Shown here: piece after piece, positions 1,976 to 61,600 of the stretch | Numbering within the stretch: position 1 is the first letter of the stretch | Layout of the letters: every line of letters starts with the position of its first letter | DNA from: a virus | Direction: 5' to 3' (one strand) | DNA length: 64,000 nt | IMG/VR virus record: IMGVR_UViG_3300025530_000001 | Coordinates: 1 to 64,000 of that record | The notes under the pieces: model-generated | What the model saw: only the letters and a program-made list of their open reading frames with translations | Database searches by the model: none | Told to the model about the DNA's origin: nothing | Translations under genes and position numbers: made by a program

Positions 1976-2161
1976 CCATCCTTTGATAAGCTTATTATAA
2001 TCAAAATGAGTGGATGGCGATAGCCCAAATAAGAAGAAAAAACATAAGGGAATATGCGAACAAAATGTTACAATAATGTGAACACGAAAAAAATATTTTT
2101 GAAAATCTATAAATTCCCTAGGTTTGTCGGTATATATTATATTATAGAGACACTAAAATCG

Positions 2162-8645: not shown

Positions 8646-11600
8646 TTAGATAGCCTGAACATCCGTGACTTTAACAGTCACAGTGTGCTTTCCGTTAAAG
8701 CTGCAGGAGTCAACAATTGCACGCAACTGCTTATGACCCGCTACGAACGGAAGAGCAGTATACAGAGCCCAGCCAGTCAACACCTCACGGCCGTTTACAG
8801 GAACGTAAACGTTGTAAAGGGTGTTGCGAGTACGTGGCGAAATCTCGGCCTTCACAATGATCTCCTTGTGCTCATTGATATAAGCAGCAAGCTTCTCGCC
8901 GTTGCGGCCGTTCTCCAGGGCAAATGCCATGGTGAATGCGCCACGCTCGAACTGATACGGATTCACAGTAGACTCCGCATTGCCCGATGCCAACGCAACA
9001 GCTTCAAGCAATTGACGCTTGAATACTGTCCAAGGAAGGCTCAGGCCACGAAGACGAGTCACTTCACCGTCTTCGTTCAGTTCTGGCTTGCGGTTCTGTG
9101 TATACGTCACGTAATATGCAACGTATCCGATGTGCTCTGGACGGTAGGCTGCTTCCAACGCTGTTGCTTGTCCTTGGAAATACTCAAGGATGTCTGACCA
9201 CTCAGCTCTGCGCAGCTCCTCGATTTCTTCAAACTTCTCAGCGTGCATATGTTCAGGCAAGTTTTGCATCACCCACTTCTTGCGCTCATTCTCAAGATCC
9301 GAGATTTCGGTGACAGCATCAATGTATTCGCCACGGATGGCTTTAACACGTTGCTCGATCAGCTCGAATGTTGCCGGATCAATCGAAATGGCGGCAGTCA
9401 GCTCGCCGAGAATGTTTGCTTGCTCATAGAAGCTGTGCTTCATCTTGCCGTCTTCAATCGAAAGACCATTTGCTTTCGCTTGGAGATCGGCAATGCGAGG
9501 ATCCAGATTCTCTTTCACCCAATCCTTGATGAAGTTATGCAACTTATCAAGTGTCGAGTGAGTCGAGACTCCATGTTTACCCTTGCGGGATGCCAGGAAT
9601 TGAGGAGTTCTCCATTTCCGCTTACCCGATTTTTCATCAAAGTACGATGCGAAATAAGGAGGGTTGGAGATAAACTCCAATTTAGCCGCCAGCTGTTCCT
9701 CATAGGCTCCACCGTGTTTTGCACGGTCGATCTCCCAGCCTTGCACCAGGCGGAGAAGGTCAATATATTCTTGATACTTGACCATCTCATGCTTCAGCAT
9801 GGCCAGTTGATTAGGAGTCCACTTGCACGGCTTGCCATGCTCATCGATCGATTCATCAATCATCTGACGAATCTTTCTGATGGCATTAGCGAGCTGAGTA
9901 GCCTTATTAGTCATGAAACCAATCTTGTTTGGATTCATAGTGAGAATCACATACTCGATTGAATATTCATGAATGGCTTGTACCAGCTCTTCAGTGTATT
10001 GATCATCACGGAAAACCACGGTATAATCAGAAGCCGAGACACAATCTGCACCGAACTCGAACTTGTCTGCTTCACCAGACTTGTTCATTGGGTAAGGGCA
10101 GCCGGTCTCAAAGCTTCTGATGGAGCCGTCGTCTTTGCGCTCAAAGTAGAGATCCAACACGGGAATGTAAGATTTGCTTTGAGCGGCCGTGACGATGGCT
10201 TCTTCCGTAATGGTCAAGCACGTATCGCCGTCGTTGTCAGCTCCACCCATAGCATACGTATTGTAATCATGCACGCTCATCACGCACAGATTACGGAACG
10301 CATGCATACGAGTTGCTGCGACATAATTGCTCGGCGCCACGCAATCAACCAGTCTTGCTTCACCATTGGTGATCGCAGGGTTGCGTGCCAAGACGACCTT
10401 ACGATCTACCATTGGTTTCAGAGAACGATCAAGCAAGAATACCTCATTCGCTCTCATGCCAATGTTTGCAGGCACGATGAGTTCCCCATCCTCGTTGCGC
10501 ATCCCGATTCTATGAGCTTCAAGAATCGCATATGGATCTTGCACCATAAAGCGATAATGCCCATCCACCGGGATCGTCGAGTTCACCCATTTGTTTACCT
10601 CTTGACGCAGCAATTCGATTGCCCATTGCTGCATCATTGCGTCTTTATGGACGAATGCATTCTCTCCACGACCAGCGTAAAGGAACGCACCAAAGGTAGT
10701 CACAATGGACTTCTTGAGGAGGTATTCTTTCTCGTCTTCATCGAGTCCGCTCATGTCGTTCAGAGCTGCGACACCTGCACGCTTCGCCAATGCTACAGGA
10801 TCATCCAGGTCCGCCAGCAAGGAGTTGAGATTCTTCTCAACAATTCCCTTCAGCACATCATAGCTCAATGGCAAGATATGCGAGAATTGATAAGGCAGAA
10901 TCGTCTTCTCCTTTGTTTGCGCCATGCTCTTATTGAACAAGGCAATGCGGAGTTGAGTGTCGAACTTATGGCAGATCGTGCGAAGATCGCCTTTCATCGC
11001 CGATTTCGTCACTACGATGTTTGCATCATAGTATTTGCGCAGGCCAGGTACGAATACCATAAGACCTTTAGCAAACGGCGTCAGGCGAATCTGCCATGCA
11101 TCAGAATCTTCACCGAATTCTGCAAGCAATGCTTGATAGATTTCCTCATCGCAGAAGATGAGTCCATCACCAGCCGGCAGTTTCAGCGGTACTTCCGATG
11201 CATCGAACGTGTGGAACGAGCCGGTATCCTTATCAAAGGCTTTGTACTTGCCACTGTTGACCATTGCGAATGCATCTTCAATGACTTCAATGGTGTACAA
11301 GCCGCCTTCGATGCGGTAGCCATGTGCTGTATTGCGATACTCTTTCCCGAAAGAAATCGTTTCGCTAGGCACTGTGCTCGTGCCGGCCAGACCAATACGC
11401 TTGAGGTACTTTGTAATATCGAGTACCCAAACAGATTGACCATGGACCACTTTCCGCTTAGCAAATGCCAGGAGATCCATGCCCAAAGCAGCAAATGCTT
11501 CTGGAACCGACATGAATTCCTCATCCAGAAATACTGCTTGCAGCAAACGAGACTGACTTGCAGTTTGCAGGAAGAAGACCGCATGTCTGAGCTCTCCTGT

Positions 11601-12419
11601 TTCCCGGTTCACATACCAGAAGCCTTCACGAAGAATTCGATTACGTGCTTCGATCTGTGCCAGAATTGCAGGATCATTCTCCTTGCCTTCCGGGATCTCA
11701 ATGTTCAGATCCACATAATGGACATGATCCATGATATCCACGACCCGCTCCACAATGATGTCTTTGCCCTTCGACTTGCGACGGAATGCGACAGTGACAT
11801 CACGTTGCGCTGCGAGTGTGTCGGAAAGCGCAGATTGAGATTGCGTGCGGTACGCTGTGTTCTTACCGGTATAGCCATAGTCTCCATAAATCAGAGACGA
11901 CTCAAACCGATCAGCTGCCTCGTTGAACTTGATGTTCTTCAAGGAGCCTGCAGCGACCAGCACCATGTTGCGCTTTGGACGCTGAAGCTTACGAGCAACC
12001 TTGTTGGTCAAGAGGAATTCCTCGAACCAATGAGCTTGCGCCGGATGAATGCCTGCATATTCCACAGGATTATGCAAGATATCCGAGATCGAGATACCTT
12101 CAGCGCATGCAGCCACTACCTTCTTGAAGTTGGTAGTGTTCTCATGGATACCTGGTGCTTTGCGGAGTTCTCGGATGATCGCCTGGTAAGTACGCAGCTC
12201 CTCGCCAGTCATGCGATCCAAACGCTTGGCTTCTTCGTAACGAGCAATTGCTGCACGAGTTGCCTTCTTCAGACCACGTTGGATTTCACGACGACGACGT
12301 GCTTCCTCACGAGCGATAGCGTATTTGATGAACGCTTCCTCGTTCTCCATGCAGAAGACTGGTACTTCATGACGTTGAGACTTGGACTCCAGAGTTTTAG
12401 CAAGTGTCTTATTATTCAT
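8646..12419 (-). CDS. single-chain two-barrel RNA polymerase candidate (YonO / eukaryotic-type RdRP-like)
   Basis: 1,257 aa with GGGAGG RBS 10 nt upstream of ATG 12417-12419. Motifs: FFLQTASQSR (11547-11576), AGDGLIF, WQIRLTPFAKGLMVFVP (11064-11096 core), VLARNPAITNGEARLV (about 10347-10394), GGADNDGD (DNDGD at 10224-10238). Confidence 0.7.
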   Translation of the reverse strand: MNNKTLAKTLESKSQRHEVPVFCMENEEAFIKYAIAREEARRRREIQRGLKKATRAAIARYEEAKRLDRMTGEELRTYQAIIRELRKAPGIHENTTNFKKVVAACAEGISISDILHNPVEYAGIHPAQAHWFEEFLLTNKVARKLQRPKRNMVLVAAGSLKNIKFNEAADRFESSLIYGDYGYTGKNTAYRTQSQSALSDTLAAQRDVTVAFRRKSKGKDIIVERVVDIMDHVHYVDLNIEIPEGKENDPAILAQIEARNRILREGFWYVNRETGELRHAVFFLQTASQSRLLQAVFLDEEFMSVPEAFAALGMDLLAFAKRKVVHGQSVWVLDITKYLKRIGLAGTSTVPSETISFGKEYRNTAHGYRIEGGLYTIEVIEDAFAMVNSGKYKAFDKDTGSFHTFDASEVPLKLPAGDGLIFCDEEIYQALLAEFGEDSDAWQIRLTPFAKGLMVFVPGLRKYYDANIVVTKSAMKGDLRTICHKFDTQLRIALFNKSMAQTKEKTILPYQFSHILPLSYDVLKGIVEKNLNSLLADLDDPVALAKRAGVAALNDMSGLDEDEKEYLLKKSIVTTFGAFLYAGRGENAFVHKDAMMQQWAIELLRQEVNKWVNSTIPVDGHYRFMVQDPYAILEAHRIGMRNEDGELIVPANIGMRANEVFLLDRSLKPMVDRKVVLARNPAITNGEARLVDCVAPSNYVAATRMHAFRNLCVMSVHDYNTYAMGGADNDGDTCLTITEEAIVTAAQSKSYIPVLDLYFERKDDGSIRSFETGCPYPMNKSGEADKFEFGADCVSASDYTVVFRDDQYTEELVQAIHEYSIEYVILTMNPNKIGFMTNKATQLANAIRKIRQMIDESIDEHGKPCKWTPNQLAMLKHEMVKYQEYIDLLRLVQGWEIDRAKHGGAYEEQLAAKLEFISNPPYFASYFDEKSGKRKWRTPQFLASRKGKHGVSTHSTLDKLHNFIKDWVKENLDPRIADLQAKANGLSIEDGKMKHSFYEQANILGELTAAISIDPATFELIEQRVKAIRGEYIDAVTEISDLENERKKWVMQNLPEHMHAEKFEEIEELRRAEWSDILEYFQGQATALEAAYRPEHIGYVAYYVTYTQNRKPELNEDGEVTRLRGLSLPWTVFKRQLLEAVALASGNAESTVNPYQFERGAFTMAFALENGRNGEKLAAYINEHKEIIVKAEISPRTRNTLYNVYVPVNGREVLTGWALYTALPFVAGHKQLRAIVDSCSFNGKHTVTVKVTDVQAI

Positions 12420-12475
12420 AGTGAATATTCCTCCCTGATTATTGTTTGGTGTGTGATGAATAGTCAGGGAAGCAA

Positions 12476-12512
12476 GCACTCGCCCGCCTCATTAGAGCTC
12501 GCCATTCAACGG
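12476..12512. repeat. right arm of long-range inverted repeat bracketing the RNAP gene
   Basis: GCACTCGCCCGCCTCATTAGAGCTCGCCATTCAACGG. Lies 57 nt upstream of the RNAP start codon. Confidence 0.8.
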
Positions 12513-12838
12513 ATACAACCCCTGGGAGTTTCCGACCTACAGGGGAGGTTCCACAATCCTTGGGTGTTCCCTATACCGGGGGAATGTGGACACTTACTAC
12601 CCGGTACAGGTGCCATGGATTGTTACGTAGACATTGAGCCCATAGCCCACCCAATGCATACGGCAAGTCTTCCGTGATTCACTGGCCATGTGAAGACTTG
12701 GCTTAAGCCATAGCCAGATAAGGTGACACTACTCACCCCCACATACGTCACCTAAATAGGTGGGGGAGGGGAAAGCCAGTAGTAGGGGTCTATCATTTCA
12801 CCCTATAACCAGCAATCCCATTGGATGCACCATAGCTG
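12513..12838 (-). ncRNA. candidate structured leader / ncRNA with three tandem H-type pseudoknot arrangements
   Basis: No ORF. Interleaved perfect stems: 12550-55/12585-90 with 12574-80/12600-06; 12664-72/12692-700 with 12682-86/12713-17; 12721-27/12747-53 with 12736-42/12760-66. Also hairpin 12519-24/12540-45. Confidence 0.35.
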
Positions 12839-13390: not shown

Positions 13391-13498
13391 AGAAGATCTC
13401 TCCTTTGCCCTTTCGGGCTTGATAGTGTGACAGTTACGGCTTGTCAGGCCCCCAGGAGCTCCCCCTGAGTATTACACCGCCTATGGCTGCGGTAATCT

Positions 13499-13562
13499 CC
13501 CACTCTGCGTTTACCAGGGCTTGTGACCTGCACCATAAAGGTGGCCGCATTAAGAGAGGGGG
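13499..13562. repeat. conserved ~65-nt intercistronic element, copy 1
   Basis: CCCACTCTGCGTTTAC-CA-GGGCTTGTGACC-[CACC ataaa GGTG hairpin]-GCCGCATTA-purine tract. Starts 5 nt after the stop of the HExxH gene in the sense direction. Confidence 0.7.
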
Positions 13563-14020: not shown

Positions 14021-14050
14021 AGTGAATTGCTCCTTTCGATTTATTGTTTT

Positions 14051-14117
14051 CCCACTCTGCGTTTACACGGGCTTGTGACCGTTACCTATACAGGTAGCCG
14101 CATTAGGAAAGAAGGGA
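14051..14117. repeat. conserved ~65-nt intercistronic element, copy 2
   Basis: CCCACTCTGCGTTTAC-AC-GGGCTTGTGACC-[GTTACC tataca GGTAGC hairpin]-GCCGCATTA-purine tract. Starts 6 nt after the stop of the 14124 gene. Confidence 0.7.
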
Positions 14118-43380: not shown

Positions 43381-43402
43381 TTCACGAGGAGGATGAGTGA
43401 CA

Positions 43403-49664: not shown

Positions 49665-52600
49665 ATGCCGGAAATGGAGAATGAATATTCTAGCTATCTG
49701 GATATGGATTCGAGGCCGATGTCTCGTTATCTTCGTTCCGATCGTGAGCGAGATGAGGATGCTCCACTTCTTCGTAAGATGATGGTAGGAACAGGAATTG
49801 CTGCAGGTGCGCTGGCTGTGGCCTATCGCACCGGTGGCATGCGCAAATTGGCTGGAGCCATCGAAGTGTATGGAAAAGGAATTGCACAAGCAGCAAAAGA
49901 GACGATGGACCAGGAGTCAGGTGGCCATCTTTTTCGTCTTTTTGGACATGCTGTTTCTGCACCGGCTGGTCGCAGGCTCTTTAACAAGGAGTTTGTTGAG
50001 CGAGCCAAACGTTCGATCGAGCAGAGAAAACGGGCTGTAGCCCAGTTTGGGGCCAATCGTGAATATGACATGCAACGTCTGATTCGACAATTGAATCGGA
50101 TGGTAGACAAGAAGGTTCCTTATCACATTGAAGAAGGAATCCGATTCAATCTGGTTATCGACGAGTTGCGAAAGAGCCATCACTTTTCGGAAGAGCAGGT
50201 CAATCAGGTTGCTCGTGCCTTTTTGAAGGCCAATCAGGAATCTAAGGGAAGCTTTTCACTGAAATATACTCACGATCGAGAAATCATTTTCCATCTCAAC
50301 AATGCCGGCATTGCTGATAAAGACACGGTTGAGAAGATCCTGGCAGCTCGCAAGAAGCATCGGATTATCCAAGATGAAAAAGCGCTTCAGGATATGAAGG
50401 AGCGCATCTCTCGTATGCAAGAGAGATTGACACGTCAAGCTTACAACGAGATGCAAGAGATGACTAGGAAGGATGGTTTCTTAAAGAGAGCAATCCGTGG
50501 CCACAGGCAAGCAACTGTGCAAGATGTGCTTGATATGCATCACGCTGGGCGCATTAAGCTTGATGAAGAAACCTACAAATCTTTGAACCGGATTATTCGT
50601 CAAAACCAGAAGTTTGGCGATGCGATATTCGATGAGCAACTGTATGTTAAGACACGAAATGGAAAAGCACATGATCTGATCGATTATAAGATCTTCAATG
50701 AAATGAAGTGGAAGATGGTGGACTATTGGGCAACCTCGTTGCCTGGTGGTCTGCTCCACCTGCGGGATTTTCTTAACATTCGGGAAGCCAGACTGAAATC
50801 GCCATTTGACATCATTGGTCGGGGATCTATTCAGCCAGGATTAAATGCGCAAATGGGCATTGCCAACAACGAGATGCTCAAAAGCGAAGTCGTCTATGTG
50901 AATGGCCGGTTTTATAACCTTTTTGATGGCGGGACAAGAGATACACCTCTTGAGCCTCTCAACAAAGGAAGACGAATGTATGGGATCTCCTCTCAGTTTG
51001 GCACCATCGGAAAGATCATGCAGCATACCAGCGGCATTGTTACTGGTGTCAAGGAGAATCAAAACTGGTTTGCTCGGACATTTGATCTCGGCAACCAAAG
51101 CAAAGAGTCGGGATTCCGATCTGTCTTATCCGGCATTACGAAATTCGGTAATCCAGAGTGGGGAAGAAATCTGATCTATGACGCCTTGAATCATGGCGTT
51201 GATTATGATGATTTCTTCAAAATCAAGAATTACTTTGAACGCTACACCAAAGGATTCAGCCCCAGAGTTCTAAATAACATTACGGATCATTTGCCGACGC
51301 ATTTGAGGCGTTTTATCCAGGACAATGAAATCAACTTCAGCCGGGAAGAAGACATGCTGAAGCTGTTTGAGTATTTAGCCAATCCGGATATGATGGTCAA
51401 TATCAATGGCGTAATGCAAAAGAACATCGCAGCCAACGGGGCATCCGAGGATCTGAAAAGGCTCTGGCGACAATATGAACGTGACAAGTATGAGTTCATG
51501 GCGAAGAAGCAGCCTGTTGGTGAAGCCAGCCTGCTTGGATTCGGAGAATACACGAACATCCAAACCAGCATGGATCAAGTGCGTCAGCAAATGGGTTTGG
51601 AAATCCTGCGTCAGATTTCAGAAGCCAACATGATGCACGGATCCACTCCGGTGTCATTCAAAGGCATCTTGAAAGACCTCCGGGAAGCCGGCAAAATCTC
51701 ATTGGAAGATATGCGTCAAGCAGAAGATCTGTATGCGCATTACCAATTCATGTCGTCAGGAAGGCACATCTACAGCAGCACTGATATCGCATTGGCTCAG
51801 ATCAATGGGTTGTTCAGAGGAACATCGGAACGGTCTCGGGAATTCCAGGAGCAGATTCAACGAATGGTGAGAAAGACCAATCCGATCTTCCAGCGTTTTT
51901 CTGGCATCCGACCTGTGAACCAGGTTGGGGATGATCTGATCTATGTCAATGAAGCCTTTGAAAATGGCTTCTTCCAGCAATTCACGTCGTTCAGAGGCGT
52001 TGCAGATCTGTTTAGGCAAGCCTTTGCCGGCAGACGGAACATGGAAGACTTCACAACATTGACGGCATATAACATGTATATTCCGTTCCGTCTGCAGGAT
52101 GCTTTAGGCAATGTGGGGCTTGGATTCTCCGATAGATCAATGGGGAACGCAGCCCAAATCTGGAGTTCGCTTCTGTTGAAACGCTTCTTGCCAGCGGTGG
52201 CCATTCCTACTTACGCTGAATACATCGATGACAAGACTGATCAATATTTCGGCACCAGCATCTCCGAGCGGTGGGAAATTTATAAGGCAACTCGTGAGTT
52301 AAGGCTTGCCGCAGAGCGGGATCCGAGCGACATTTACGGCATTTTGACTAATGCCAAAACATCTGATGAGCTGAAGCGGGAAATGTCGCTTCGTCCGGGG
52401 ATTGAACACTTTGGTGCCGGGCCTGAGCTTTATCTTCCGGGCATAGGCAAAGTAGGCGTTCTGAGAACCATTGGAAAGCTTCTGGGCGGAGGCGCACCGG
52501 TAGATGAAAAGGACACGTACACGGTTGAGGAGCTGCAGGATTACTACGCATATGGTGTGGATGAGGTGCGCCAGGGCCGCTGGTGGTTGTTTGGTTCCAA

Positions 52601-55600
52601 GAGTGCCTATCGTGGCGATCGCATCATCGAATTCCGTCCTAACTCCTATCGTTTGGCGCTTAGCGACTGGGAATATACGAGTGTCACCTCGACCATGCAA
52701 GAGCGCTGGGAACATACCTTGTTTCCGACGTTTGAGAACTGGTTCGGATTGAAGAATCTGATCCGAAGCAGAGAGGATCTCTACTGGTGGGAAATCAAGC
52801 ACTACTATGATCGTCCTTACTTGCTGACCGGCTCCATGTTCAATCCAAATACGCCATTCATCGGCGACATCGGCAATGCGACAATCGGGCAAATTTTCAA
52901 GCCGATCCGTCAAATGCATCCGGAATATTGGGGTGATCCGGTGCTCATGCAAGAGCAGGCGGATCAGTATGGGGCTCGTCCGACTGAGCCGATTATGACA
53001 AAAATCTCTCCTGCCGGGCGCATGGAGCATGTGGTTCCAGCAACGGTGCAAGATTATGGATCATCTATATTTCCGACGATTCCGGTCACTGGTGATCCAT
53101 ACGCAGTGACGCAAATCCGAAGCCTTGCACAAAGTGCAGGAATGCGCATGCCTCAATACTTTGTGACCAGGAATTTGAGCACAGACGGCTATTATACAGG
53201 AGACTTTGTGCTGCAAAAAACCAGGTCTGGCCAGGCCGTGTATGTTCCTGCAGATATTGGAGCAGCAGGATTCACGCCTGAGCAGCTGTTCGAAATGGGA
53301 GCTCCTGCTTCGCCATATATTGAAACCAAGCCGAGAGGATTGATGGAGCAGGAATATCCATATCGAAGTGAATTCAAATATCAAAAGCTCCTCAATCTGC
53401 AGGATCCACGAGATTTAAATTATCAGGCCAAGCAGTTCTTCGACAACGTTCGTGAAACACTCGGTATTTATAACTGGATTGGAGAAGAACTGACTGGATC
53501 TAAGCCTGAAAACAGAATGATCATTCAAAAAGCAGACTATGCGAACAACTTGTCGAACACCTTCTGGGAATCAAATCTCGGCTCGCTTGGCGGCGATTTT
53601 TCAGAAATCATGCGCCGTTTCCTTCGGAGAGATGACGGAAAGCAAGAACAATACAACCCGATCCGGAACACCATGCCTGATTGGCTGCCAGGCGGCAATT
53701 ACTTCATCAACTTCCAGGTGGGTGATCCGTACTCCAAGATTCCTCATGGCGAATATCGTCTTCCAGGTGAAGCTTATGAGCGATTGAATTATCTCCACCC
53801 GGACGAAACAGGCAGATATGGCGCATTCGATAAGTTTAAGATACTGGCAGATGTAGCGCCATGGAGCGAAGAGTATAAATTCTGGAAGGAATATGTCGAG
53901 GAAAACATTACGGATCCTGAGTTGAGGAAGCAAATTGCTGTAATCAAGGATCAAGTCGCTAGACGAAAAAGGAAATATGAGTTTACTCCATACCGTTTTG
54001 CAGATGCAGAAATCGAAAAACAGAAGGTTACTGTTACCAAGTTCCTGGACGATTACACCTTCTTGACAAAAGAATTTGGCGACACACCAATCCGCCTGGC
54101 AGGCATGCAGTATCAGGCCAATGCAGAGGGAGTGCTGCAAAGCTATATCAGTGTAGGAGATCGTATTACCATTGGCATCGATCCCAATCCGGCCAGACGG
54201 ATTTCGGATGACACTTACGGCACCATCCGGGCAGTTGTTTACCGAAACAACACGAATATTAACAGAGACATCCTGGAGCGGGGGCTGATGAAGGAGAACA
54301 AGAATGATTTCTCTGCAGTCGGTGTTCATGCTAGGTATACGCCTTCTGAGATCCGGTCCGGCGCTCGGTGGGAAAGACTAGCGCACGCAGATACGCCATT
54401 CAACACCAAGTTCCTTCCGGTTCGCACGGCACTCGAAGAGTACGAGCGGGATCAAATATATGGGAAGGACTGGGCGACCTGGGAAGGCTTCCTCATGAAA
54501 GACTATGGAATTCCGATTTACCATAGTGCCATCAAAGATAACCCCATTATGGCCGGCGCACAAATCGCCGGATGGGCCACAGTCTTGGCTTATCTGTTTT
54601 TGCCAAGAGGAAAAAGCGGACGCCATCACTGGTATTGGGGTTTAGCGGGGTTTGCAGCTGGTGCAGGAGGCAGCCTCTGGAGAATGGGCTATGAAGCTTC
54701 GACCGGAGAGGCTTGGATTCCTGAAAGGCGCCGTATCGAACATGACATCAATGAATACTTCGACATCCTGAAATACATGAAGTATACCGGACTCTACGAG
54801 CGAGCCAAAGAAGAGCTGCTTCAGCAAGGCATCGACATCGAAGCCATAGAGACCGAGCGAGAGCTCAAAGAGCAAATGACCAAGGAGCGTCGCAAGGAAC
54901 TTGAAGCAGAGCGAAGAAGGTTGTTTATTGAGCAGCCAGCAGGTTGGGAAGAGCGAAGGAGAGAGATCAATCAGGAGCTCAAGATTATCTCACAAAACAA
55001 GGATGAGCTTTTTCTCCCTGAAGCGGTTCTGCAAGCATTAAGTTATAAGGAAAAAGCAGAAACCACCTTGTATGCAGTAGATCCGTTTGGCGATCGCATG
55101 AAAGTCATGCAGGCCATGCCGCACAAGGATCGATGGTTCTTCAATGAATTTGCCAATGCAGAGGATTATGAAAAGGAACGTATCCTGGAGCTGGTGGCAC
55201 CTAATCAACGCCGCATATACAAGGCTCTGTGGGGCGGTGAGCTTGAGCCTCAAATCCCGCTGGAGGAATATTTCAAAAACCGATACTTGCCAGGCCCGGA
55301 TTGGATTGGATGGCGACCAGAAGTCAATCTGGATGACATTATGGTTAAAGCCGTTCAGGAATACGATCTTGACCTGAATGATTTCAACTTCTGGGATGAA
55401 GACGTGGCAGCCGGGCAGCTGGCGCCTGATCTGAATGAAGAAGGAAACGGCATATATGGATTCTCCGGATATAAGGATATGCGGAAAAACATTCGGGAGA
55501 TTCTGGAAGGGAAAGGTCTTCGGGACGTGTCGGTTACAGTTACACCATCAAGTAGTCAAGGCGCACGCATCGTAATGAATTACCAAGAAGATCGTAGTCG

Positions 55601-55646
55601 GGAGATCGACAACTACTTGCGGTACAATATGGAATACTTGATGTAG
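49665..55646 (+). CDS. giant tail-module protein (tape-measure candidate) with TM segments and an SNase-like OB-fold segment
   Basis: 1,993 aa with AAGGAG RBS. Follows the chaperone pair. TM-like stretches MMVGTGIAAGALAVAY, IMAGAQIAGWATVLAYLFL and WGLAGFAAGAGGSLW. SNase-like segment at 54027-54306. Confidence 0.6.
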   Translation: MPEMENEYSSYLDMDSRPMSRYLRSDRERDEDAPLLRKMMVGTGIAAGALAVAYRTGGMRKLAGAIEVYGKGIAQAAKETMDQESGGHLFRLFGHAVSAPAGRRLFNKEFVERAKRSIEQRKRAVAQFGANREYDMQRLIRQLNRMVDKKVPYHIEEGIRFNLVIDELRKSHHFSEEQVNQVARAFLKANQESKGSFSLKYTHDREIIFHLNNAGIADKDTVEKILAARKKHRIIQDEKALQDMKERISRMQERLTRQAYNEMQEMTRKDGFLKRAIRGHRQATVQDVLDMHHAGRIKLDEETYKSLNRIIRQNQKFGDAIFDEQLYVKTRNGKAHDLIDYKIFNEMKWKMVDYWATSLPGGLLHLRDFLNIREARLKSPFDIIGRGSIQPGLNAQMGIANNEMLKSEVVYVNGRFYNLFDGGTRDTPLEPLNKGRRMYGISSQFGTIGKIMQHTSGIVTGVKENQNWFARTFDLGNQSKESGFRSVLSGITKFGNPEWGRNLIYDALNHGVDYDDFFKIKNYFERYTKGFSPRVLNNITDHLPTHLRRFIQDNEINFSREEDMLKLFEYLANPDMMVNINGVMQKNIAANGASEDLKRLWRQYERDKYEFMAKKQPVGEASLLGFGEYTNIQTSMDQVRQQMGLEILRQISEANMMHGSTPVSFKGILKDLREAGKISLEDMRQAEDLYAHYQFMSSGRHIYSSTDIALAQINGLFRGTSERSREFQEQIQRMVRKTNPIFQRFSGIRPVNQVGDDLIYVNEAFENGFFQQFTSFRGVADLFRQAFAGRRNMEDFTTLTAYNMYIPFRLQDALGNVGLGFSDRSMGNAAQIWSSLLLKRFLPAVAIPTYAEYIDDKTDQYFGTSISERWEIYKATRELRLAAERDPSDIYGILTNAKTSDELKREMSLRPGIEHFGAGPELYLPGIGKVGVLRTIGKLLGGGAPVDEKDTYTVEELQDYYAYGVDEVRQGRWWLFGSKSAYRGDRIIEFRPNSYRLALSDWEYTSVTSTMQERWEHTLFPTFENWFGLKNLIRSREDLYWWEIKHYYDRPYLLTGSMFNPNTPFIGDIGNATIGQIFKPIRQMHPEYWGDPVLMQEQADQYGARPTEPIMTKISPAGRMEHVVPATVQDYGSSIFPTIPVTGDPYAVTQIRSLAQSAGMRMPQYFVTRNLSTDGYYTGDFVLQKTRSGQAVYVPADIGAAGFTPEQLFEMGAPASPYIETKPRGLMEQEYPYRSEFKYQKLLNLQDPRDLNYQAKQFFDNVRETLGIYNWIGEELTGSKPENRMIIQKADYANNLSNTFWESNLGSLGGDFSEIMRRFLRRDDGKQEQYNPIRNTMPDWLPGGNYFINFQVGDPYSKIPHGEYRLPGEAYERLNYLHPDETGRYGAFDKFKILADVAPWSEEYKFWKEYVEENITDPELRKQIAVIKDQVARRKRKYEFTPYRFADAEIEKQKVTVTKFLDDYTFLTKEFGDTPIRLAGMQYQANAEGVLQSYISVGDRITIGIDPNPARRISDDTYGTIRAVVYRNNTNINRDILERGLMKENKNDFSAVGVHARYTPSEIRSGARWERLAHADTPFNTKFLPVRTALEEYERDQIYGKDWATWEGFLMKDYGIPIYHSAIKDNPIMAGAQIAGWATVLAYLFLPRGKSGRHHWYWGLAGFAAGAGGSLWRMGYEASTGEAWIPERRRIEHDINEYFDILKYMKYTGLYERAKEELLQQGIDIEAIETERELKEQMTKERRKELEAERRRLFIEQPAGWEERRREINQELKIISQNKDELFLPEAVLQALSYKEKAETTLYAVDPFGDRMKVMQAMPHKDRWFFNEFANAEDYEKERILELVAPNQRRIYKALWGGELEPQIPLEEYFKNRYLPGPDWIGWRPEVNLDDIMVKAVQEYDLDLNDFNFWDEDVAAGQLAPDLNEEGNGIYGFSGYKDMRKNIREILEGKGLRDVSVTVTPSSSQGARIVMNYQEDRSREIDNYLRYNMEYLM

Positions 55647-55659: not shown

Positions 55660-58600
55660 ATGGCTGATCATGAATTGAATGCTAACCGGGCCATTAATGG
55701 AAATGCTGAATCAGAAAGCCGAGCGGCTGGAAAGAAGAAAAAGAAGGTAACCATAAGACAAAAAATCGAATCACTCTTGGGCGCCGGCGTGCAGTCGGCA
55801 CCCGTTCCTCCATCCAAACAGTTTGAGCTGGTATCAACCTTTGGCGTGTTGAATCGAGCGCCATTTGAAAAGGATCCAGATCGCTTGAATAAACTCCAGC
55901 CGACGATCAACCTGATTCATAAAGCGATGGCAGATGCAGAAGCGTTTCGCAACAAAGGAACCATCAAGTCGCAAGGATCTGTGATTTTCACCAACTTCAA
56001 CAGCCCTCACCAAATGGGAGGACAAAAGGAAATTGAAACACTCTTAAGGTTTGAGAGAACCAAGCAGAAAAACATATTCGCTTATGACGTTGAAACTTTT
56101 GGAGACATCAAAACAGGCGATGGCTTTCACATCGTGGAGATTGCATTTCAAGAACTGGAACGCACAAATAAAGATGCCTTTCGCTCCACGAACAATCGTC
56201 AGAGCCTGCTGATCAAGCCGACTGAATCTGCCCAGAAATACCTGAGACAACTTATCCGTCGATTTGAGGCTGACCCATATATCTTCAATACATTGGATAG
56301 TGCAGCACAGGTTTCTCTTGTTAACTTGATGCGATATTCAACGATCGGCGGAGAAGGAATCAGTGTTGCCAATCTGGATGAAGCCAATCTTTCTCACAAC
56401 TCAATCATCAACAGCGTGTATCGCAAGGTAGACAACTACATTAACGCGGAAAAACTGCTTACTCATAAAGATCTCTATCTTAAGCACATCAAGTCAGGCT
56501 TCCAAAACCTGATCAGCCTGGGAGAAAGGCATAGTGTTTCGAATGCCTTAGAGCGTCTCAGAAACTTCTATAATCCCATCGCTGATCAATACTTTGTTTC
56601 ATACAATGGCGTTGGCTTTGACATCAAAGCTTTCGAGTTGTTTGGAGCCAAAAACAATACGAAAATCGATTTGCCGCAGAAGCATATTGACTGGTATCGC
56701 TTGCTCACAACTGCATATCCAAGCTCCGGATATTTTCACTATAAAGTGCTTGGCAGACAGAATGGGCTTGGATTTGAGCAAGGCGCCTGGACCCTGAACG
56801 AAATGCGCAGGAGCTTGGGCATGGATACAAGCGAAGCCCACCTTGCAATGGCAGACGTTGACGACCGTGGCCTTGGTGGAGTATTTTCTGCAACGCATCG
56901 CAAAGTGTATAACGAAATCCTGAAGGCCAAACGAAGAGAGAAAAAATTGCAGAAAAGTGGCTCCTTGAATCGGCCGCCAGTTTTCACCTGGTCAAATAAT
57001 AGTGCCTTGAAAATTGGGCAAACCCTATTTTCACCATCTGGTGTCATGATTCATGGTGGCGGTGAATATGATTTTCAGGCCAGAATTGACGAAAATGGAA
57101 ATTTGACTGTTCTCAATCCGGAGTTCCAGAAAACGGTTTTGAATGCAAGAACCTTTTACAAGGTTGATGCCTTTATGGAGCTTAAGGACAATGCGGGGAA
57201 TATCATTGGCCACACATTGAGGTTATATGATGAGGATAACGATATATATACGTATATCAACCGCTACGGTCATTCCTCCATGGCTGACATCCAGACATAC
57301 GTTCAACAGAACCTCTATAACTGGGATGGCATCTCAAAGCAAGAGAGACTGGCAATTCGTGAAGAGCGTACTAGAGACAGGGCTCGCCGTGATTATGAGC
57401 GCCTGACCTCGCTGGCCGGCGCCGGAGCTGGTAAAACATATGGTTTTGAGGCTGCGAAACGGGCCTATGCAAATGTTGAAGTTTACGAGAAGCGGGTCAA
57501 GGGCGGCAAGAGAAAATACATTGAGCAAAGAGCCGCTGAACTCATGGAGGAAGAAGCTGAACGATTGGGCGTCACTGATCCAAAAGAACGTGAAGTCATC
57601 AGGCAGAAATATATTGGACAGTTGATGGCGAATCGAATAAGTCATGAAGAAATGCTCAAGGCCATGGATTTCAACAGCCAGGCTGTATATAAGAACGGAG
57701 TCTTCAAAGGATGGACAATTAAGCCAGAAGAGCAAGAATCGTTCTTCAGAATGGCACCGCGTTTGATGTCAGAACGGGAACGATTTCAGGAAGCTATGAA
57801 GATTATCGAGGAGCATTTCCCCATCGAGAGCATGAGTGGAGCTGAATTGGAGAAGGCTAAGCAGCGCCGCGACATGGCATTTCGCATTTACGCTCGCAGT
57901 GTGGATGGCGTGCTTGGAAGACACGTTGAAGAACATGCGCTTAAGGAATATGAGCGACATGGATACACCTTCATGTTCGATGGCAGGCAGCGAAGAATCA
58001 ATTTCCTCTCATTGGATAAAGCAGAGAAAAGTATCTGGTCAATTGTAAGGGAGGCGCCTGAAGGAGATCCACAGTTCCAGGTTCACCGCCTGTATCAATT
58101 GATCAATGCGTTGCAGGAGTCAGGGGCATTCAACAGAAAAATGGCCAACAGACTTATCAATAACATGTCCAATTTCAGTAGAGTCGGCGACATGGTGCAG
58201 AAGCTGGCATTAGAAATGATGAATAATGCCAATTATCTACAGGACACTGTTGTAATCAATTCCTTGAAGCCGAGGGATATGACCAGACTCACTGCAGACC
58301 TGAACATGGAACTGGCCAGAGCTGCCATTCAGAAAGTGCTTAATGCTGAGGGCAAGGTGCTTCCTGGTGGGATCGTCAAACTCGCACCAGAAATCGAGCA
58401 ACGTATTCAAGCGATTGAACCGGTGGATCATATTTCGGGGCTTAAAGCCAATAACCGGGATGCGATCGCTACGGTCATTAACGCTATACACAACACCCGC
58501 TATAACCTTCAGTATGAGCTGGCTCTGAACAAAGATCCAAATGCACCAGTGGCCAGGATTGTCGTGTTTCGACCTGAGCACTCAACGAGTGTAACAGAGG

Positions 58601-61600
58601 CTATTGAGTCCGGAAGGAAACATCCAAGGGCTGTTGAGATTGATCTTCCACTTATCAATTCGGAGGGCTACCAAATCTATGGCAAGCGAAACCTGATCGG
58701 CCACAGTGTTGCCATCCGAGAAAATGGAATGACCAAACTCATCTCAACTGCACAAATGGTTGGCATGCAATATGCCTATAACATAGAAAAGATCTTGAGC
58801 CCAATCATTGGCGAGGATCCGGACTATGAGCTGGCCAATTATCGAAGCAAAAGGTTCCTTGATGATGTACTGAAAAATGTAGCTGCTTCGTCAGACAATC
58901 CTCATGAGTTCAATGATGCTTTTGAAGCAAAAGGAGTTCTGAGTGACTTCGACAAGATGACTCATGTACGCTTGGCTCCTGCTTATATTCACGACATGAT
59001 TAAAGATATGACTCTTAAAGAACAGGAAGCCTTTCTGACTGACGATGCGTTCTATTGGACGCATGAAGATGGCCGAGCCACGAAAAAGGTAAAAACCTTC
59101 CTGACCATGGATCATGTGCGCAAAGATAGATTCAATATGTTAATGGGTATCATTGACTGGGCAAATTCGACAGAGTGGGAAGGAGAGAAGCCGGAGCTTT
59201 TTTTCAATGCTATCAAAGAGAACAATGCTGCAAGGGCGATTCTCTCCACACAAGACTTGGCAGAGAAGACCTTGTATGGTCGATTCATCAATCTGGCCCG
59301 TCCGAATATGATCCAGAGAAGAAATTTCTACAGCATCACAGAAGATGTCGCCCAAAAGTTGTCTCAAGTCAATGGATATGTGAACTTGGATCCAATTGTC
59401 GAAACGGAGTCCAATTGGAAGTTTCTTGATAAATACATGGCCAATACAAAAGAATATTCAGGCGTCAATGTGATGGTTGCCTATATGGATCCTGAAGAAG
59501 TCTATCGAAGAACAATGGCCATGATGAATGACGCGGAGGGACGAGAAATCCTCCGAGAAGAGGGAATTCTGGTTACCCGAAATGGCCAGGAAGTTATTGA
59601 TCCGGTTCGTCTCAAATCAACCTATGAAAACCTGTCAATTATTCAAAAAGATCTGATGAATGCTCTGGCATTCACTGATTCCAAGCGGTTTGACAAAGGA
59701 GAAGGCACATTCCAATGGCACAAAAAGTTTGTCTCCGATGCATCAAAACTCTACGGAGATTTTGCGGCGGATGGCACTGTAATGGAAGGTGCTATTGTGA
59801 AACCGGGAGATGTGATTGGCAGAAAATACGAAGATGGAGTATGGAAAGAGATCGTCTATGAAGAGAAGATAGAAGGCAGATTAAAAGGGACTGCCAATCA
59901 AATCTTTCAGGTGGAATATACGGATACGAACCCATTCAAGTTTTCGTTCGGCGGCGAGAAGGGTACTGACTTCAATGCAGCTGGTAAACGTTTTATGCAG
60001 CGATTGACTGGCAGTGATCAAGTTGTGGCCGTCATTGCACCAGACCCTGGCAAACGTAAATTCTACGGGATGCTCATGGAAGGTCAGGCAAAAATGATCT
60101 TGGATGAGCTGAATAGGCGAGGACAAGAAGCACGAGCTCAACTCGTAGAACAGCTCCAATTGAATCGTATTGGTATCATGCTTGAAAACGGCAGATTCGT
60201 GGATCGGAGTTATCTCATGGACAGTATTGATGTTGAAGCCTTCCATGAAATTGCTGATCAGCTCGGCGTTAAGTTTAAGACAGATGCTGATGTTCATGTG
60301 GGGATTTTGGAGATGCGCCTCATGCGCAATCCAAGATACTTCAAGACAGTGGACGAGACAGGGAGAGCGATCATCGGACGTGATGAAGCGGGCAATAAGA
60401 TTTATGCTCGTGGCGAACGTGATGGCGTTGCTTATGGTCACCGTGAGATGAATGTGCTTGAGCGCATTGGCGCAACTAAGACTTATGAGCATGTATTCAA
60501 TGAAATGCGCAGGCAAGGGCTAGAGACAGGCAAATGGGTTGATGCCCTCAACACTGACTATGCGATTATGGCACTGGCCGGCGATCCTGCAACTGAATCT
60601 TATAAAGATCGTGTAGTGAAGTCATATGACTTTAACCTCATGCCGGAGGTTGACCTGGATGACTTCACCATTAAGGGCACAATCCTGGATCATGAAGCCG
60701 TAGCTAGGCAACTGGGTGTTAGCACGGATGAGCTCGGGAAGTTTTTCTGGCTCGACTTGAATACTGAGGTTGACGTGGAGCTGGAAGGCAAGGGGAAAGG
60801 CACCACCAAGATCAGTCGTATTCCTGTGCCTGTCCTGAATCATTATTATGATGAGTCTGGCAAGATTCGATTGAGAGATTCACAGCAACTTATCGCCAAT
60901 ATCAATAACAGCCTGAAAATGAAGGCTCGTTCTGTTGGCAAAGGAGAAAGAGGTCCGAAGGGTCCAGATTATTGGGACAGACGGATCGCAGCTGATGTAA
61001 AGAATTATCTTGATCAATTAGTGATGGATGCCACCTCGTCAAAGGGGTTGTCGGGCGAAGGCGCCTTAAAGGTCAGACTCGGGACATCTGCTTCCGGCCT
61101 AATGAAAACCATAGATCCATTTGCTTCGCAGCACGTCGGAGATGAAGTCACCTGGATCTCGGTGCAGCAGGCAAAAGATATGGGCATCTATGAAAAGCTC
61201 ATCGGCGAAAACAACATCGGCACAGCCATGGAAGAAGAAATTCTGAATGACTGGACAAGGCAGCAGTATAAATACGCCGAAGTTACCCGCTTCCCGACAA
61301 AGAGTATCCATGCCAAGCAGTACACCCGTATAGTGATCGATCCGGGTCTGACAACAGGCAACATTGCCACTACTGCTTTCTCCGTGCTCAAGCTGGAGGG
61401 TGACAATGACGGTGACGAAAGCCATGTTGTGGTAATCGACAAAGACGAAGTTCAAAAAGAGTGGAAGCGTCTGGCGAACGAGCGTAAGGTGTACTATTCC
61501 GATGGTCAAGATTGGAAAGTGTTCCAGAATCAATGGGCAGCCGAACTCGCTGAAAAGAAAACGGAATTCGATCTGAAAGAGCTTGCCAAACGTGATTTCG

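What the first reader, a model, noticed from the sequence alone, without database searches (positions are those of the whole stretch)
8646..12419. 1,257-aa single-chain polymerase with the complete eukaryotic-RdRP/YonO motif series, and a second DNDGD protein in the same genome
The protein shows five motifs in canonical order. FFLQTASQSR corresponds to RDR F-x-F-x-x-S-x-SQ-x-R. AGDGLIF corresponds to DG-x-G-x-I. WQIRLTPFAKGLMVFVP corresponds to FQIRYGGYKGVVAVDP. VLARNPAITNGEARLVDCV corresponds to V-x-x-NP-x-x-x-PGD-x-R-V. GGADNDGDTCLTI corresponds to SGGDLDGD; DNDGD is at 10224-10238. This is the signature of two-barrel single-subunit RNAPs such as SPbeta YonO. Both large proteins in this window (this one and 55660-62688) use the identical DNDGD variant. 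That suggests a two-polymerase transcription programme, one packaged and one expressed after infection, independent of host RNAP for at least part of the cycle.
Basis: partly seen in the sequence, partly recalled or inferred. Interest (0 to 1): 0.8.

Follow-up and report, generated by a model that had tools for sequence, protein, structure and literature searches.

The report
Jumbo phage with two RNA polymerases
This ~197-kb Bacillus-type jumbo phage encodes a known kind of single-chain RNA polymerase related to eukaryotic RNAi polymerases. It also has a giant tail-module protein that carries a previously unannotated RNA-polymerase core and is probably delivered with the DNA.

Summary
ORF 8646-12419 (-) encodes a 1,257-aa protein with all five motifs. 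It passes Pfam RdRP (PF05183, E=4e-13). Its AlphaFold model (pLDDT 82) matches only QDE-1 in the PDB (E=2e-19).

It is not new in kind. It is the positional and sequence ortholog of gp99 of Bacillus phage 0305phi8-36 (HHalign 99.3%, E=2.5e-20). Gp99 was aligned to the RdRP motifs in 2007 and later classed as YonO-like.

The second protein (55660-62688, 2,342 aa) is the more interesting part. It belongs to a family of about 75 giant proteins whose invariant residues are K-x6-K, R-x-P and D-x-D-G-D. A family profile hits only the largest subunits of multisubunit RNA polymerases in the PDB (best E=7e-8).

This protein sits in the tape-measure slot of the tail module. It shares its C-terminal module with the mass-spectrometry-verified virion protein gp146 of 0305phi8-36. 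It also has an N-terminal DEDDh exonuclease-like domain. Databases call its homologs "structural" or "hypothetical".

A virion plus non-virion polymerase cascade, as in Thermus phage P23-45, is the best-supported reading. It is inferred, not shown. The shared "DNDGD" is coincidental, because the two proteins belong to different polymerase clades.

The parts
8646..12419 (-). p1: 1,257-aa single-chain two-barrel RNA polymerase of the QDE-1/RdRP/YonO clade, ortholog of 0305phi8-36 gp99 (stop codon included)
   Evidence: Pfam PF05183 E=4.4e-13. AF2 pLDDT 81.8. Foldseek matches QDE-1 at E=2e-19. HHalign to gp99 gives 99.3%, E=2.5e-20.
12430..12435 (-). Shine-Dalgarno GGGAGG, 10 nt upstream of the p1 ATG
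   Evidence: Read directly from the sequence.
11046..11096 (-). p1 barrel-A motif WQIRLTPFAKGLMVFVP (R445, K451: the basic pair)
   Evidence: Position. Invariant in 14 homologs.
11154..11174 (-). p1 AGDGLIF (D418, the barrel-A carboxylate; I equate it with QDE-1 D709 from the motif, not from a residue-level alignment)
   Evidence: QDE-1 residues are taken from PMC2919709.
10209..10394 (-). p1 barrel-B catalytic segment: VLARNPAITNGEARLV ... GGADNDGDTCLTI (R679-N-P681; D728, D730, D732)
   Evidence: Aligned to RDR2 'VVVTKNPCLHPGDIRV...SGGDLDGD' and to YonO 'FDNDGDKALII'.
55660..62688 (+). p2: 2,342-aa giant tail-module protein with DEDDh exonuclease-like N-terminus, two-barrel RNA-polymerase core and tape-measure-type C-terminal module (an upstream GTG at 55651 is also in frame)
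56077..56859 (+). p2 N-terminal DEDDh 3'-5' exonuclease-like domain (D143, E145, N316, D321, D344, H394, D399)
   Evidence: These residues are 93-100% conserved in 58 family members. p2 gets only sub-threshold Pfam hits (RNase_T, DNA_pol_B_exo2, RNase_H_2). Homolog P0026 is above the RNase_H_2 cutoff.
59938..59961 (+). p2 candidate barrel-A basic pair K1427 ... K1434 (PFKFSFGGEKGTD)
   Evidence: K1427 is 100% and K1434 98% conserved in 60 members. HHalign puts them on E. coli beta K1065/K1073, but the score is not above noise.
61288..61416 (+). p2 barrel-B catalytic segment: R1877-F-P1879-T ... G-D1915-N-D1917-G-D1919 (family consensus RYPTFH..AMQ ... NADSDGD)
   Evidence: R, P and the three D are 100% conserved. 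Aligned on beta' NRAPTLH...NADFDGD.
62332..62685 (+). p2 C-terminal module: hydrophobic helix (aa 2225-2243), proline-rich linker and conserved ~70-aa tail, shared with 0305phi8-36 gp146
   Evidence: Hydropathy scan. BLASTP of gp146 against family members and the alignment.
49665..55646 (+). p3: 1,993-aa virion protein, homolog of 0305phi8-36 gp145, immediately upstream of p2
   Evidence: BLASTP E=1e-106 to ORF145. Synteny of sheath, tube and chaperone genes.

Best explanation
The window is part of a ~197-kb myovirus or phage-plasmid of the Bacillus phage 0305phi8-36 lineage. It encodes two unrelated single-chain two-barrel RNA polymerases.

p1 (8646-12419, -) is the ortholog of 0305phi8-36 gp99. 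It has a QDE-1/eukaryotic-RdRP-like fold, is made after infection, and most likely acts as a DNA-dependent transcriptase for a class of phage genes, as shown for YonO.

p2 (55660-62688, +) is a giant protein in the tape-measure slot of the tail module. Its C-terminal half holds a beta-like K-x6-K barrel and a beta'-like R-x-P...D-x-D-G-D barrel. Its N-terminus is a DEDDh exonuclease-like domain. Its C-terminus is the membrane-helix and tail module of the lineage's tape-measure protein.

The most likely mechanism has three steps. p2 is assembled into the tail. It is expelled into the cell envelope or cytoplasm with the DNA. It then transcribes the first genes that enter, independently of the host. 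This parallels the tape-measure-fused virion polymerase gp96 and the non-virion polymerase gp64 of Thermus phage P23-45.

Shown here: both proteins belong to the two-barrel polymerase superfamily, their gene positions, and their co-occurrence. Inferred: catalytic activity, packaging, template type and timing.
For: p1:
- Pfam RdRP 49.2 bits against a cutoff of 23.8.
- The catalytic residues are invariant in 14 homologs.
- AF2 model has pLDDT 81.8 and pTM 0.73.
- The top 14 PDB fold matches are all QDE-1, E=2e-19 to 2e-17, target-normalised TM-score (TMt) 0.52-0.55.
- The viral fold matches are phage 'RNA dependent RNA polymerase' entries.
- HHalign to YonO gives E=4e-5 and to gp99 E=2.5e-20 over 690 columns.
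- p1 is syntenic with gp99: same arm, with a SLOG/YpsA-like gene downstream.
- YonO is a proven DNA-dependent RNA polymerase (PMC5467207, abstract).

p2:
- 75 representative relatives were found, mostly 2,100-2,900 aa.
- K1427, R1877, P1879, D1915, D1917 and D1919 are 100% conserved; K1434 is 98% and E1323 is 92%. This matches the invariant set of two-barrel polymerases listed in PMC2919709.
- The family profile hits 127 PDB sequences. The top 60 are all largest subunits of multisubunit RNA polymerases: Pol V 7e-8, ASFV RPB1 4e-7, phiKZ gp55 7e-7, Thermus beta' 4e-6.
- HHalign to E. coli beta' scores 53, against at most 29 for 60 shuffles and 85 real decoys. The next-best real targets are gp96, gp64 and gp99, in the D-x-D-G-D register.

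Packaging:
- Gene order is sheath, tube, chaperones, p3 (= gp145), p2 (= the gp146 slot).
- gp146 is a mass-spectrometry-verified virion protein and shares the C-terminal module with the p2 family.
- Homologs in cultured phages are annotated 'structural protein' (KLEB27-3) and 'virion structural protein' (WH1).

Co-occurrence: all 8 plasmids with close p1 homologs also carry p2 homologs.

Precedent: P23-45 gp96 and gp64 (PMC10770324).
Against: - There is no virion proteomics or transcription data for this phage.
- The p2 AF2 model is poor (pLDDT 50) and its fold search gave nothing significant (best E=0.16).
- The beta-like barrel of p2 rests on two invariant lysines only. The profile match to beta is not above noise.
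- p2 has no significant similarity to gp96 (E=0.005-0.016).
- 0305phi8-36 has p1's ortholog but no p2-type core anywhere in its genome, so the lineage can live without it.
- TATAAT-like elements next to a 14-bp palindrome lie upstream of early-arm and structural genes, which suggests substantial host-polymerase transcription.
- A large globular polymerase passing through a contractile tail tube has no precedent that I know of.
Confidence: 0.6

Rival explanations
1. Only p1 is a working transcriptase. p2 is essentially a tape-measure or ejection protein, and its polymerase-like core does something other than gene transcription. Candidates are priming, pulling DNA into the cell by transcription-like translocation, or making a short RNA during entry.
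For: p2 sits in the tape-measure slot and shares its C-terminal module with gp146, which was assigned as tape measure. 0305phi8-36 lacks the core. The 2007 authors raised polymerase-mediated injection for this lineage.
Against: The full catalytic set is invariant across about 60 very divergent members. That implies selection for catalysis of the RNA-polymerase type. The best matches are transcriptases. The P23-45 tape-measure-fused enzyme does transcribe pre-early genes.
Confidence: 0.17
2. p1 acts on RNA templates as a true RNA-dependent RNA polymerase, like its eukaryotic relatives. It might make dsRNA or antisense RNA for regulation or anti-defence rather than transcribe DNA.
For: p1 is closer to the eukaryotic RdRP Pfam model than YonO is: YonO gets no Pfam hit while p1 gets E=4e-13. 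Its best fold match, QDE-1, has both activities (PMC9508822 abstract).
Against: The only characterised phage member, YonO, is DNA-dependent. A dsDNA phage has no known need for an RdRP, as argued for gp99 in 2007. The gene sits in the early arm, where 0305phi8-36 gp99 is read as a rapidly expressed monocistronic gene, as expected for a transcriptase.
Confidence: 0.1
3. p2 is a two-barrel DNA polymerase or repair enzyme, analogous to PolD, with its own DEDDh proofreading exonuclease. It is not an RNA polymerase.
For: A DEDDh exonuclease with conserved catalytic residues is fused N-terminally. That arrangement is typical of DNA polymerases. PolD also has two DPBB barrels.
Against: All significant PDB hits are RNA-polymerase largest subunits and none is PolD DP2. 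The R-x-P-T-x-H...NAD-x-DGD signature is the beta' form. The location is in the tail module, not the replication module.
Confidence: 0.05
4. The motifs are chance resemblances and neither protein is a polymerase.
For: A bare D-x-D-G-D is expected about once per window by chance (my estimate). p1 and p2 are unrelated outside it.
Against: Pfam, fold and PDB-wide profile matches are all highly significant and fall in the correct register.
Confidence: 0.01

Closest known systems
Bacillus phage 0305phi8-36 gp99 (ORF099, 'hypothetical DNA-directed RNA polymerase, similar to Pfam05183')
   Same: It is homologous over about 690 columns (HHalign 99.3%, E=2.5e-20). It has a similar length (1,218 aa) and the same genome arm and neighbours. 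It has the same RdRP motif series, published in 2007.
   Different: Identity is only about 24%, which is undetectable by tblastn at database scale. Its motif is DTDGD instead of DNDGD. 0305phi8-36 has no p2-type second polymerase.
SPbeta YonO (single-chain DNA-dependent RNA polymerase)
   Same: It is a single-chain two-barrel enzyme of a Bacillus phage with the same DNDGD. HHalign gives E=4e-5 over 201 columns.
   Different: YonO is 839 aa and lacks about 400 aa present in p1. It does not reach the Pfam RdRP model, whereas p1 does. BLAST similarity is limited to the motif.
QDE-1 / eukaryotic RNAi RNA-dependent RNA polymerases (PF05183)
   Same: p1 passes the Pfam gathering score. QDE-1 is its best and only significant PDB fold match. 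The motif order is shared with RDR2.
   Different: Identity is 11-14%. p1 is prokaryotic and viral. Its template is probably DNA. It has extra N- and C-terminal domains.
Thermus phage P23-45 gp96 (tape-measure-fused virion RNAP) and gp64 (non-virion RNAP)
   Same: The logic matches: a two-barrel polymerase built into the tape-measure-slot protein plus a second, free single-chain polymerase in the early region.
   Different: There is no significant sequence similarity. In p2 the polymerase is in the C-terminal half, preceded by an exonuclease domain; in gp96 it is N-terminal. This phage has a contractile tail, whereas P23-45 is a siphovirus. The P23-45 pair are paralogs, whereas p1 and p2 belong to different clades.
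Multisubunit RNAP beta' / Rpb1 (including phiKZ and AR9 jumbo-phage RNAPs)
   Same: The p2 family profile matches their catalytic barrel with NRxPTxH...NADFDGD in register, best E=7e-8.
   Different: p2 is a single chain that presumably carries both barrels. No other beta' or beta regions are detectable. No Pfam RNA_pol domains are called.
crAss-like phage phi14:2 gp66 and N4 vRNAP (giant virion-packaged polymerases)
   Same: They are giant (>2,000 aa) virion proteins with an internal polymerase, delivered with the DNA to transcribe early genes.
   Different: They belong to podoviruses. By my recollection they are packaged in the capsid rather than encoded in a tail tape-measure slot; I did not check this. 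gp66 groups structurally with QDE-1 and the N4 enzyme is T7-like (my knowledge), whereas p2 is beta'-like. I did not compare sequences with gp66 directly.

Membership tests
PF05183 RdRP / QDE-1-YonO clade of single-chain two-barrel polymerases (p1) | Scores above the curated Pfam gathering threshold | tested here: met
   49.2 bits against 23.8, E=4.4e-13, covering aa 335-1008 and profile positions 120-579 of 582. Homologs P0009 and P0012 also pass.
PF05183 RdRP / QDE-1-YonO clade of single-chain two-barrel polymerases (p1) | Metal-binding D-x-D-G-D preceded by R-x-P in barrel B | tested here: met
   R679-N-P681 and D728-N-D730-G-D732 are invariant in 14 homologs and align to RDR2 and YonO.
PF05183 RdRP / QDE-1-YonO clade of single-chain two-barrel polymerases (p1) | Barrel A with a basic pair (QIR...KG) and an upstream carboxylate (DG.G.I) | tested here: met
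   Q443, R445, K451, G452, D418 and G419 are invariant. The residue equivalences to QDE-1 are taken from the motif pattern, not from a residue-level structural alignment.
PF05183 RdRP / QDE-1-YonO clade of single-chain two-barrel polymerases (p1) | QDE-1-like three-dimensional fold | tested here: met
   The AF2 model has pLDDT 81.8. Foldseek returns QDE-1 only, E=2e-19, probability 1.0, TMt 0.52-0.55. This is a predicted structure, not a solved one.
PF05183 RdRP / QDE-1-YonO clade of single-chain two-barrel polymerases (p1) | Template-dependent RNA synthesis, and which template (DNA or RNA) | not testable with these tools
   This needs biochemistry.
Two-barrel RNA polymerase superfamily, beta'-like barrel (p2) | Significant profile match to the catalytic DPBB of beta'/Rpb1, with R-x-P and D-x-D-x-D in register | tested here: met
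   PDB-wide hmmsearch gives 127 hits. The top 60 are all largest RNAP subunits, best E=7.1e-8. HHalign to RpoC gives E=1.8e-6, far above shuffled and real decoys. The residues are 100% conserved.
Two-barrel RNA polymerase superfamily, beta-like barrel (p2) | Second barrel supplying two conserved lysines | tested here: inconclusive
   K1427 is 100% and K1434 98% conserved. HHalign places them on beta K1065/K1073, with NP...SRMNIGQ in register, but the score of 20.8 lies within the shuffle range.
Two-barrel RNA polymerase superfamily (p2) | Two double-psi beta-barrels seen in a structure | tested here: inconclusive
   The AF2 model from 6 sequences has pLDDT 50. The best Foldseek hit is E. coli beta at E=0.16.
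Virion-delivered, tape-measure-associated RNA polymerase (P23-45 gp96 type) (p2) | Encoded in the tail module at the tape-measure position and carrying tape-measure-type membrane and C-terminal elements | tested here: met
   Synteny with 0305phi8-36 ORF143-146. The hydrophobic helix, Pro-rich linker and tail domain are shared with gp146.
Virion-delivered, tape-measure-associated RNA polymerase (P23-45 gp96 type) (p2) | Physically present in virions | not testable with these tools
   The support is indirect only. gp146 was found in virions by mass spectrometry. Homologs are annotated 'structural protein' or 'virion structural protein' in KLEB27-3 and WH1, and the basis of those annotations is unknown.
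Virion-delivered, tape-measure-associated RNA polymerase (P23-45 gp96 type) (p2) | Sequence homology to gp96 | tested here: not met
   HHalign E=0.005-0.2, limited to the D-x-D-G-D neighbourhood. p2 works like gp96 at most; it is not a member of gp96's family.
DEDDh (DnaQ-like) 3'-5' exonuclease (p2 N-terminus) | ExoI D-x-E, ExoII N-x3-D and ExoIII H-x4-D residues, and a Pfam match | tested here: inconclusive
   D143, E145, N316, D321, H394 and D399 are 93-100% conserved in 58 members. p2 itself gets only sub-threshold Pfam hits. Homolog P0026 passes RNase_H_2 with 23.8 bits against 22.

The most novel reading that the evidence does not exclude
The p2 family is a previously unrecognised class of tail-delivered, single-chain, beta'-like RNA polymerase. 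It is built into the tape-measure-slot protein of contractile-tailed jumbo phages and phage-plasmids of Bacillota and is fused to a DEDDh exonuclease. It has about 75 representative clusters and includes cultured Bacillus phages KLEB27-3, WH1 and Edson. If this reading holds, tape-measure-borne virion polymerases arose independently of P23-45. The exonuclease could give a virion transcriptase a nuclease or proofreading partner.
Probability: 0.45. Interest if true: 0.75.

Novelty: new variant of a known kind. Interest (0 to 1): 0.6.

Why it matters
p1 by itself adds one more divergent member to a phage polymerase family known since 2003-2007. Its close fit to the eukaryotic RdRP model, closer than YonO's, is useful for the question of whether RNAi polymerases came from phages.

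The value lies in p2. It suggests that a whole group of Bacillus and Paenibacillus jumbo phages and ~200-kb phage-plasmids carry an unannotated RNA polymerase inside a tail protein. If so, the P23-45 arrangement would not be a one-off, though the two enzymes show no sequence kinship. Cultured members of the group (KLEB27-3, WH1, Edson) make the idea directly testable. The family could also supply compact single-chain beta'-type polymerases, with an attached exonuclease, for structural and evolutionary work on the origin of RNA polymerases.

Tried and rejected
- Direct sequence searches of p1 and p2 against PDB sequences gave nothing. The p1 family profile gave only sub-significant RDR2 hits.
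- tblastn of p1 against 50,697 phage records gave no match, even for the core at E<=1. gp99 was found only through the annotation, and the homology was then confirmed by profile comparison.
- HHalign of the p1 family against the p2 family aligned only the 12-residue motif.
- With the shallow 5-sequence p2 profile, HHalign against gp96, gp64, YonO, RpoC and RpoB was not significant. Significance appeared only after the family was deepened to 60 sequences.
- The AF2 model of p2 aa 1001-2200 was too poor to use.
- I first guessed that ORF201 of 0305phi8-36 was the YonO-like gene. It has no D-x-D-x-D and no profile match.
- ORF146 of 0305phi8-36 is not an RNAP-bearing homolog. It has no D-x-D-G-D and no core HMM hit, and only the C-terminal module is shared.
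- A full-length alignment of 58 giant proteins failed in the tool, so I used local MAFFT on core regions.
I repeated it without that sequence.
- Literature searches for NCgl1702, for KLEB27-3 and for Bacillus phages with a tape-measure-associated virion RNA polymerase found no description of the p2 family. Subscription journals are not covered.

Full report
**1. Observation**

The ORF lies on the minus strand. The ORF listing reports 8646..12479 from a GTG. The ATG at 12419 has a GGGAGG ten bases upstream and yields 1,257 aa. That product is identical to database protein P0001, which comes from a 197.4-kb metagenomic contig.

DNDGD is at nt 10224-10238. The second protein (55660-62688, 2,342 aa) carries DNDGD at nt 61402-61416. 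These are the only two D-x-D-G-D pentapeptides in any frame of the window.

By my own composition estimate, one such pentapeptide per 64 kb of six-frame translation is expected by chance. The motif alone proves little, so everything below rests on context and on profile or structure comparisons.

**2. The window**

The window is phage DNA. It encodes:
- a large terminase (22310-24076)
- a portal protein (25790-28087)
- a protease/scaffold protein
- a major capsid protein (30845-31930)
- two sheath genes, tail-tube paralogs and a split tail chaperone

The portal's nearest relatives are Moorella phage MTATph1 and Bacillus phages WH1, Edson, KLEB27-3 and 0305phi8-36. Gene order matches 0305phi8-36 gene for gene.

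A ParM/Alp7A-like actin gene (18695-19900) is present. The closest homologs of p1 and p2 lie on 200-260-kb Bacillus and Paenibacillus plasmids. Both points indicate a phage-plasmid lifestyle.

**3. p1**

- Pfam RdRP (PF05183) is matched at E=4.4e-13, 49 bits against a cutoff of 23.8, over aa 335-1008.
- Fourteen homologs of 30-43% identity keep every catalytic residue invariant.
- An AlphaFold2 model of aa 58-1257 has pLDDT 81.8 and pTM 0.73.
- Its only significant PDB matches are 14 chains of QDE-1, the Neurospora and Thielavia RNAi polymerase: E=2e-19 to 2e-17, probability 1.0, target-normalised TM-score (TMt) 0.52-0.55.
- In the viral structure library the matches are phage proteins named RNA-dependent RNA polymerase, plus A7KVB1, a 1,218-aa entry.
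- The family profile aligns to YonO over 201 columns including DNDGD (E=4e-5). YonO itself does not reach the Pfam model. At the sequence-profile level p1 is therefore nearer the eukaryotic enzymes than YonO is.

**4. p1 is not new in kind**

0305phi8-36 ORF099 (gp99, 1,218 aa) is annotated 'hypothetical DNA-directed RNA polymerase; similar to RNA-directed RNA polymerase family, Pfam05183'.

The p1 family profile aligns to it over 690 columns at 99.3% probability, E=2.5e-20. Both genes sit in the same arm, upstream of a SLOG/YpsA-like gene.

Hardies et al. 2007 already aligned gp99 to the diagnostic RdRP motifs and proposed that it is a DNA-directed enzyme on a rapidly expressed monocistronic transcript (PMC2147016). 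Later reviews class it as YonO-like (PMC2919709 and PMC7824862). YonO was shown to be a DNA-dependent RNA polymerase (PMC5467207).

p1 is thus a very divergent new member, about 24% identical to gp99 and invisible to tblastn, of a known kind.

**5. p2 is a polymerase too, of a different clade**

p2 and p1 share nothing detectable beyond the 12-residue motif. Pfam, PHROGs and direct PDB searches say nothing about the polymerase part of p2.

A profile of aa 1201-2150, searched against 1.84 billion representative proteins, found 75 relatives. Most are 2,100-2,900 aa. In 60 long members the following are conserved:
- 100%: K1427, R1877, P1879, D1915, D1917, D1919, G2006, K2049
- 98%: K1434
- 92%: E1323

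Two basic residues, R-x-P, three aspartates and an upstream carboxylate are the invariant set of two-barrel polymerases (PMC2919709). The local consensus 'RYPTFH..AMQ...(N)ADSDGD' mirrors beta' 'NRAPTLHRLGIQ...NADFDGD'. Some members even read ADFDGDQ.

With the 60-sequence profile, HHalign matches E. coli beta' residues 323-471 at E=7e-6 in the right register.

As a control, I ran a sub-profile against 85 real decoy ORFs and 60 shuffled beta' sequences. The sub-profile scored 53 on beta'. No shuffle or unrelated protein exceeded 23. The next-best real targets were the known two-barrel polymerases gp96, gp64 and gp99, at scores of 29, 22 and 21.

Independently, an 18-sequence profile searched against every PDB sequence returned 127 hits. 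The top 60 are all largest subunits of multisubunit RNA polymerases:
- plant Pol V, E=7e-8
- African swine fever virus RPB1, E=4e-7
- phiKZ gp55, E=7e-7
- Thermus beta', E=4e-6
- E. coli beta', E=1e-4

The beta-like barrel is less secure. K1427/K1434 align on beta K1065/K1073, with the NP...SRMNIGQ segment in register, but the score is within noise. The AlphaFold model of p2 was too shallow to help (pLDDT 50).

**6. Where p2 sits and what else it carries**

p2 follows the sheath, tube and chaperone genes and p3. p3 is the homolog of 0305phi8-36 gp145 (BLASTP 1e-106). p2 therefore occupies the slot of ORF146, the lineage's assigned tape-measure protein and a mass-spectrometry-verified virion component.

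ORF146 has no polymerase core, and no other 0305phi8-36 ORF has one. Its last ~170 residues are nevertheless homologous to the C-termini of p2-family members. The shared module is a hydrophobic helix, a proline-rich linker and a conserved ~70-aa tail ending N-x-N-x-N..D-[DN]-x...W.

The N-terminus of the p2 family has DEDDh exonuclease residues conserved at 93-100%. Pfam support there is weak.

Family members occur in three cultured phages: KLEB27-3 gp034 (core HMM E=5e-101), WH1 gp095 and Edson. They are annotated 'structural protein', 'virion structural protein' and 'hypothetical protein'. None is annotated as a polymerase.

All eight plasmids that carry close p1 homologs also carry p2 homologs.

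**7. Mechanism**

The best-supported model is a two-step programme like that of Thermus phage P23-45. There a tape-measure-fused virion polymerase (gp96) transcribes pre-early genes, including the gene for a second, non-virion polymerase (gp64) (PMC10770324).

In this phage p2 would be the tail-borne enzyme and p1 the enzyme made after entry.
- Shown: superfamily membership of both proteins, gene positions, the shared C-terminal module, and co-occurrence.
- Inferred: catalysis, packaging, template and timing.

Several observations argue for caution:
- 0305phi8-36 manages without a p2-type core.
- TATAAT-like elements followed by the palindrome TGTAATGCATTACA precede genes in both arms (10 copies against 0.19 expected). 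This suggests host-polymerase promoters under a phage regulator.
- Passage of such a protein through a contractile tail has no precedent that I know of.

Unlike the P23-45 pair, p1 and p2 are not paralogs. One is QDE-1/YonO-like and the other is beta'-like.

**8. Verdict**

p1 is a new member of a known kind, published for this lineage in 2007. p2 appears to be an unannotated, tail-associated beta'-like polymerase family with an attached exonuclease. That is a new variant of the virion-polymerase theme, and it is testable in cultured Bacillus phages. I found no description of it in the searchable literature, which excludes most subscription journals.

Noticed in passing
window 1962, 2162, 3390, 14470, 15345, 18079, 18452, 25746, 26101, 48326 (14 nt each): The 14-bp palindrome TGTAATGCATTACA occurs 10 times at up to 2 mismatches, against 0.19 expected. 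Several copies lie 1-8 nt downstream of a TATAAT-like hexamer and just upstream of gene starts, for example the portal and chaperone genes. It looks like an operator or a transcript-start element of a phage regulon.
   Followed up: partly
window 13498-13528 and 14050-14080 (minus-strand sense), extending about 25 nt further upstream: Two copies of a ~55-nt conserved element (TTAATGCGGCyACCTkTATrGT..GGTCACAAGCCCkkGTAAACGCAGAGTGGGA) lie upstream of two small leftward genes next to p1. It is a candidate phage-polymerase promoter or a small RNA.
   Followed up: partly
window 12420-12838: There is a ~420-nt G+C-rich stretch without an ORF between p1 and the next leftward gene. It could be a long leader or a non-coding RNA upstream of the polymerase gene.
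   Followed up: no
window 56077-56859 (p2 aa ~140-400): A DEDDh (DnaQ-like) exonuclease motif set is fused to the N-terminus of the giant polymerase-bearing protein and is conserved in 58 family members. I know of no other RNA polymerase with such a domain attached. NCBI names one homolog 'ribonuclease H-like domain-containing protein'.
   Followed up: partly
window 18695-19900 (+): This gene encodes a ParM/Alp7A-type actin-like segregation protein (ALP_N E=5e-21). The closest homologs of p1 and p2 lie on 200-260-kb Bacillus and Paenibacillus plasmids. Together these points suggest the element can be maintained as a plasmid prophage.
   Followed up: partly
L003 6624-14237 (0305phi8-36 ORF146) compared with window 62332-62685: The assigned tape-measure protein of 0305phi8-36 shares only its C-terminal helix, Pro-rich linker and tail module with the p2 family and lacks the polymerase core. 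The slot has therefore gained or lost an entire polymerase within the lineage.
   Followed up: yes
window 1426-2028 (-): This gene encodes a YspA/cpYpsA-related SLOG-domain protein (E=6e-16) downstream of p1. It mirrors ORF097 (DUF1273, YpsA-like) downstream of gp99 in 0305phi8-36, and SPbeta yoqJ is also YpsA-like. The association with the polymerase arm is conserved.
   Followed up: no
window 46241-48318 (+): There are three consecutive tail-tube paralogs (phrog_9206, mislabelled 'major head protein') and two sheath genes (41732-42766 and 43397-46168). The same duplications occur in 0305phi8-36.
   Followed up: no
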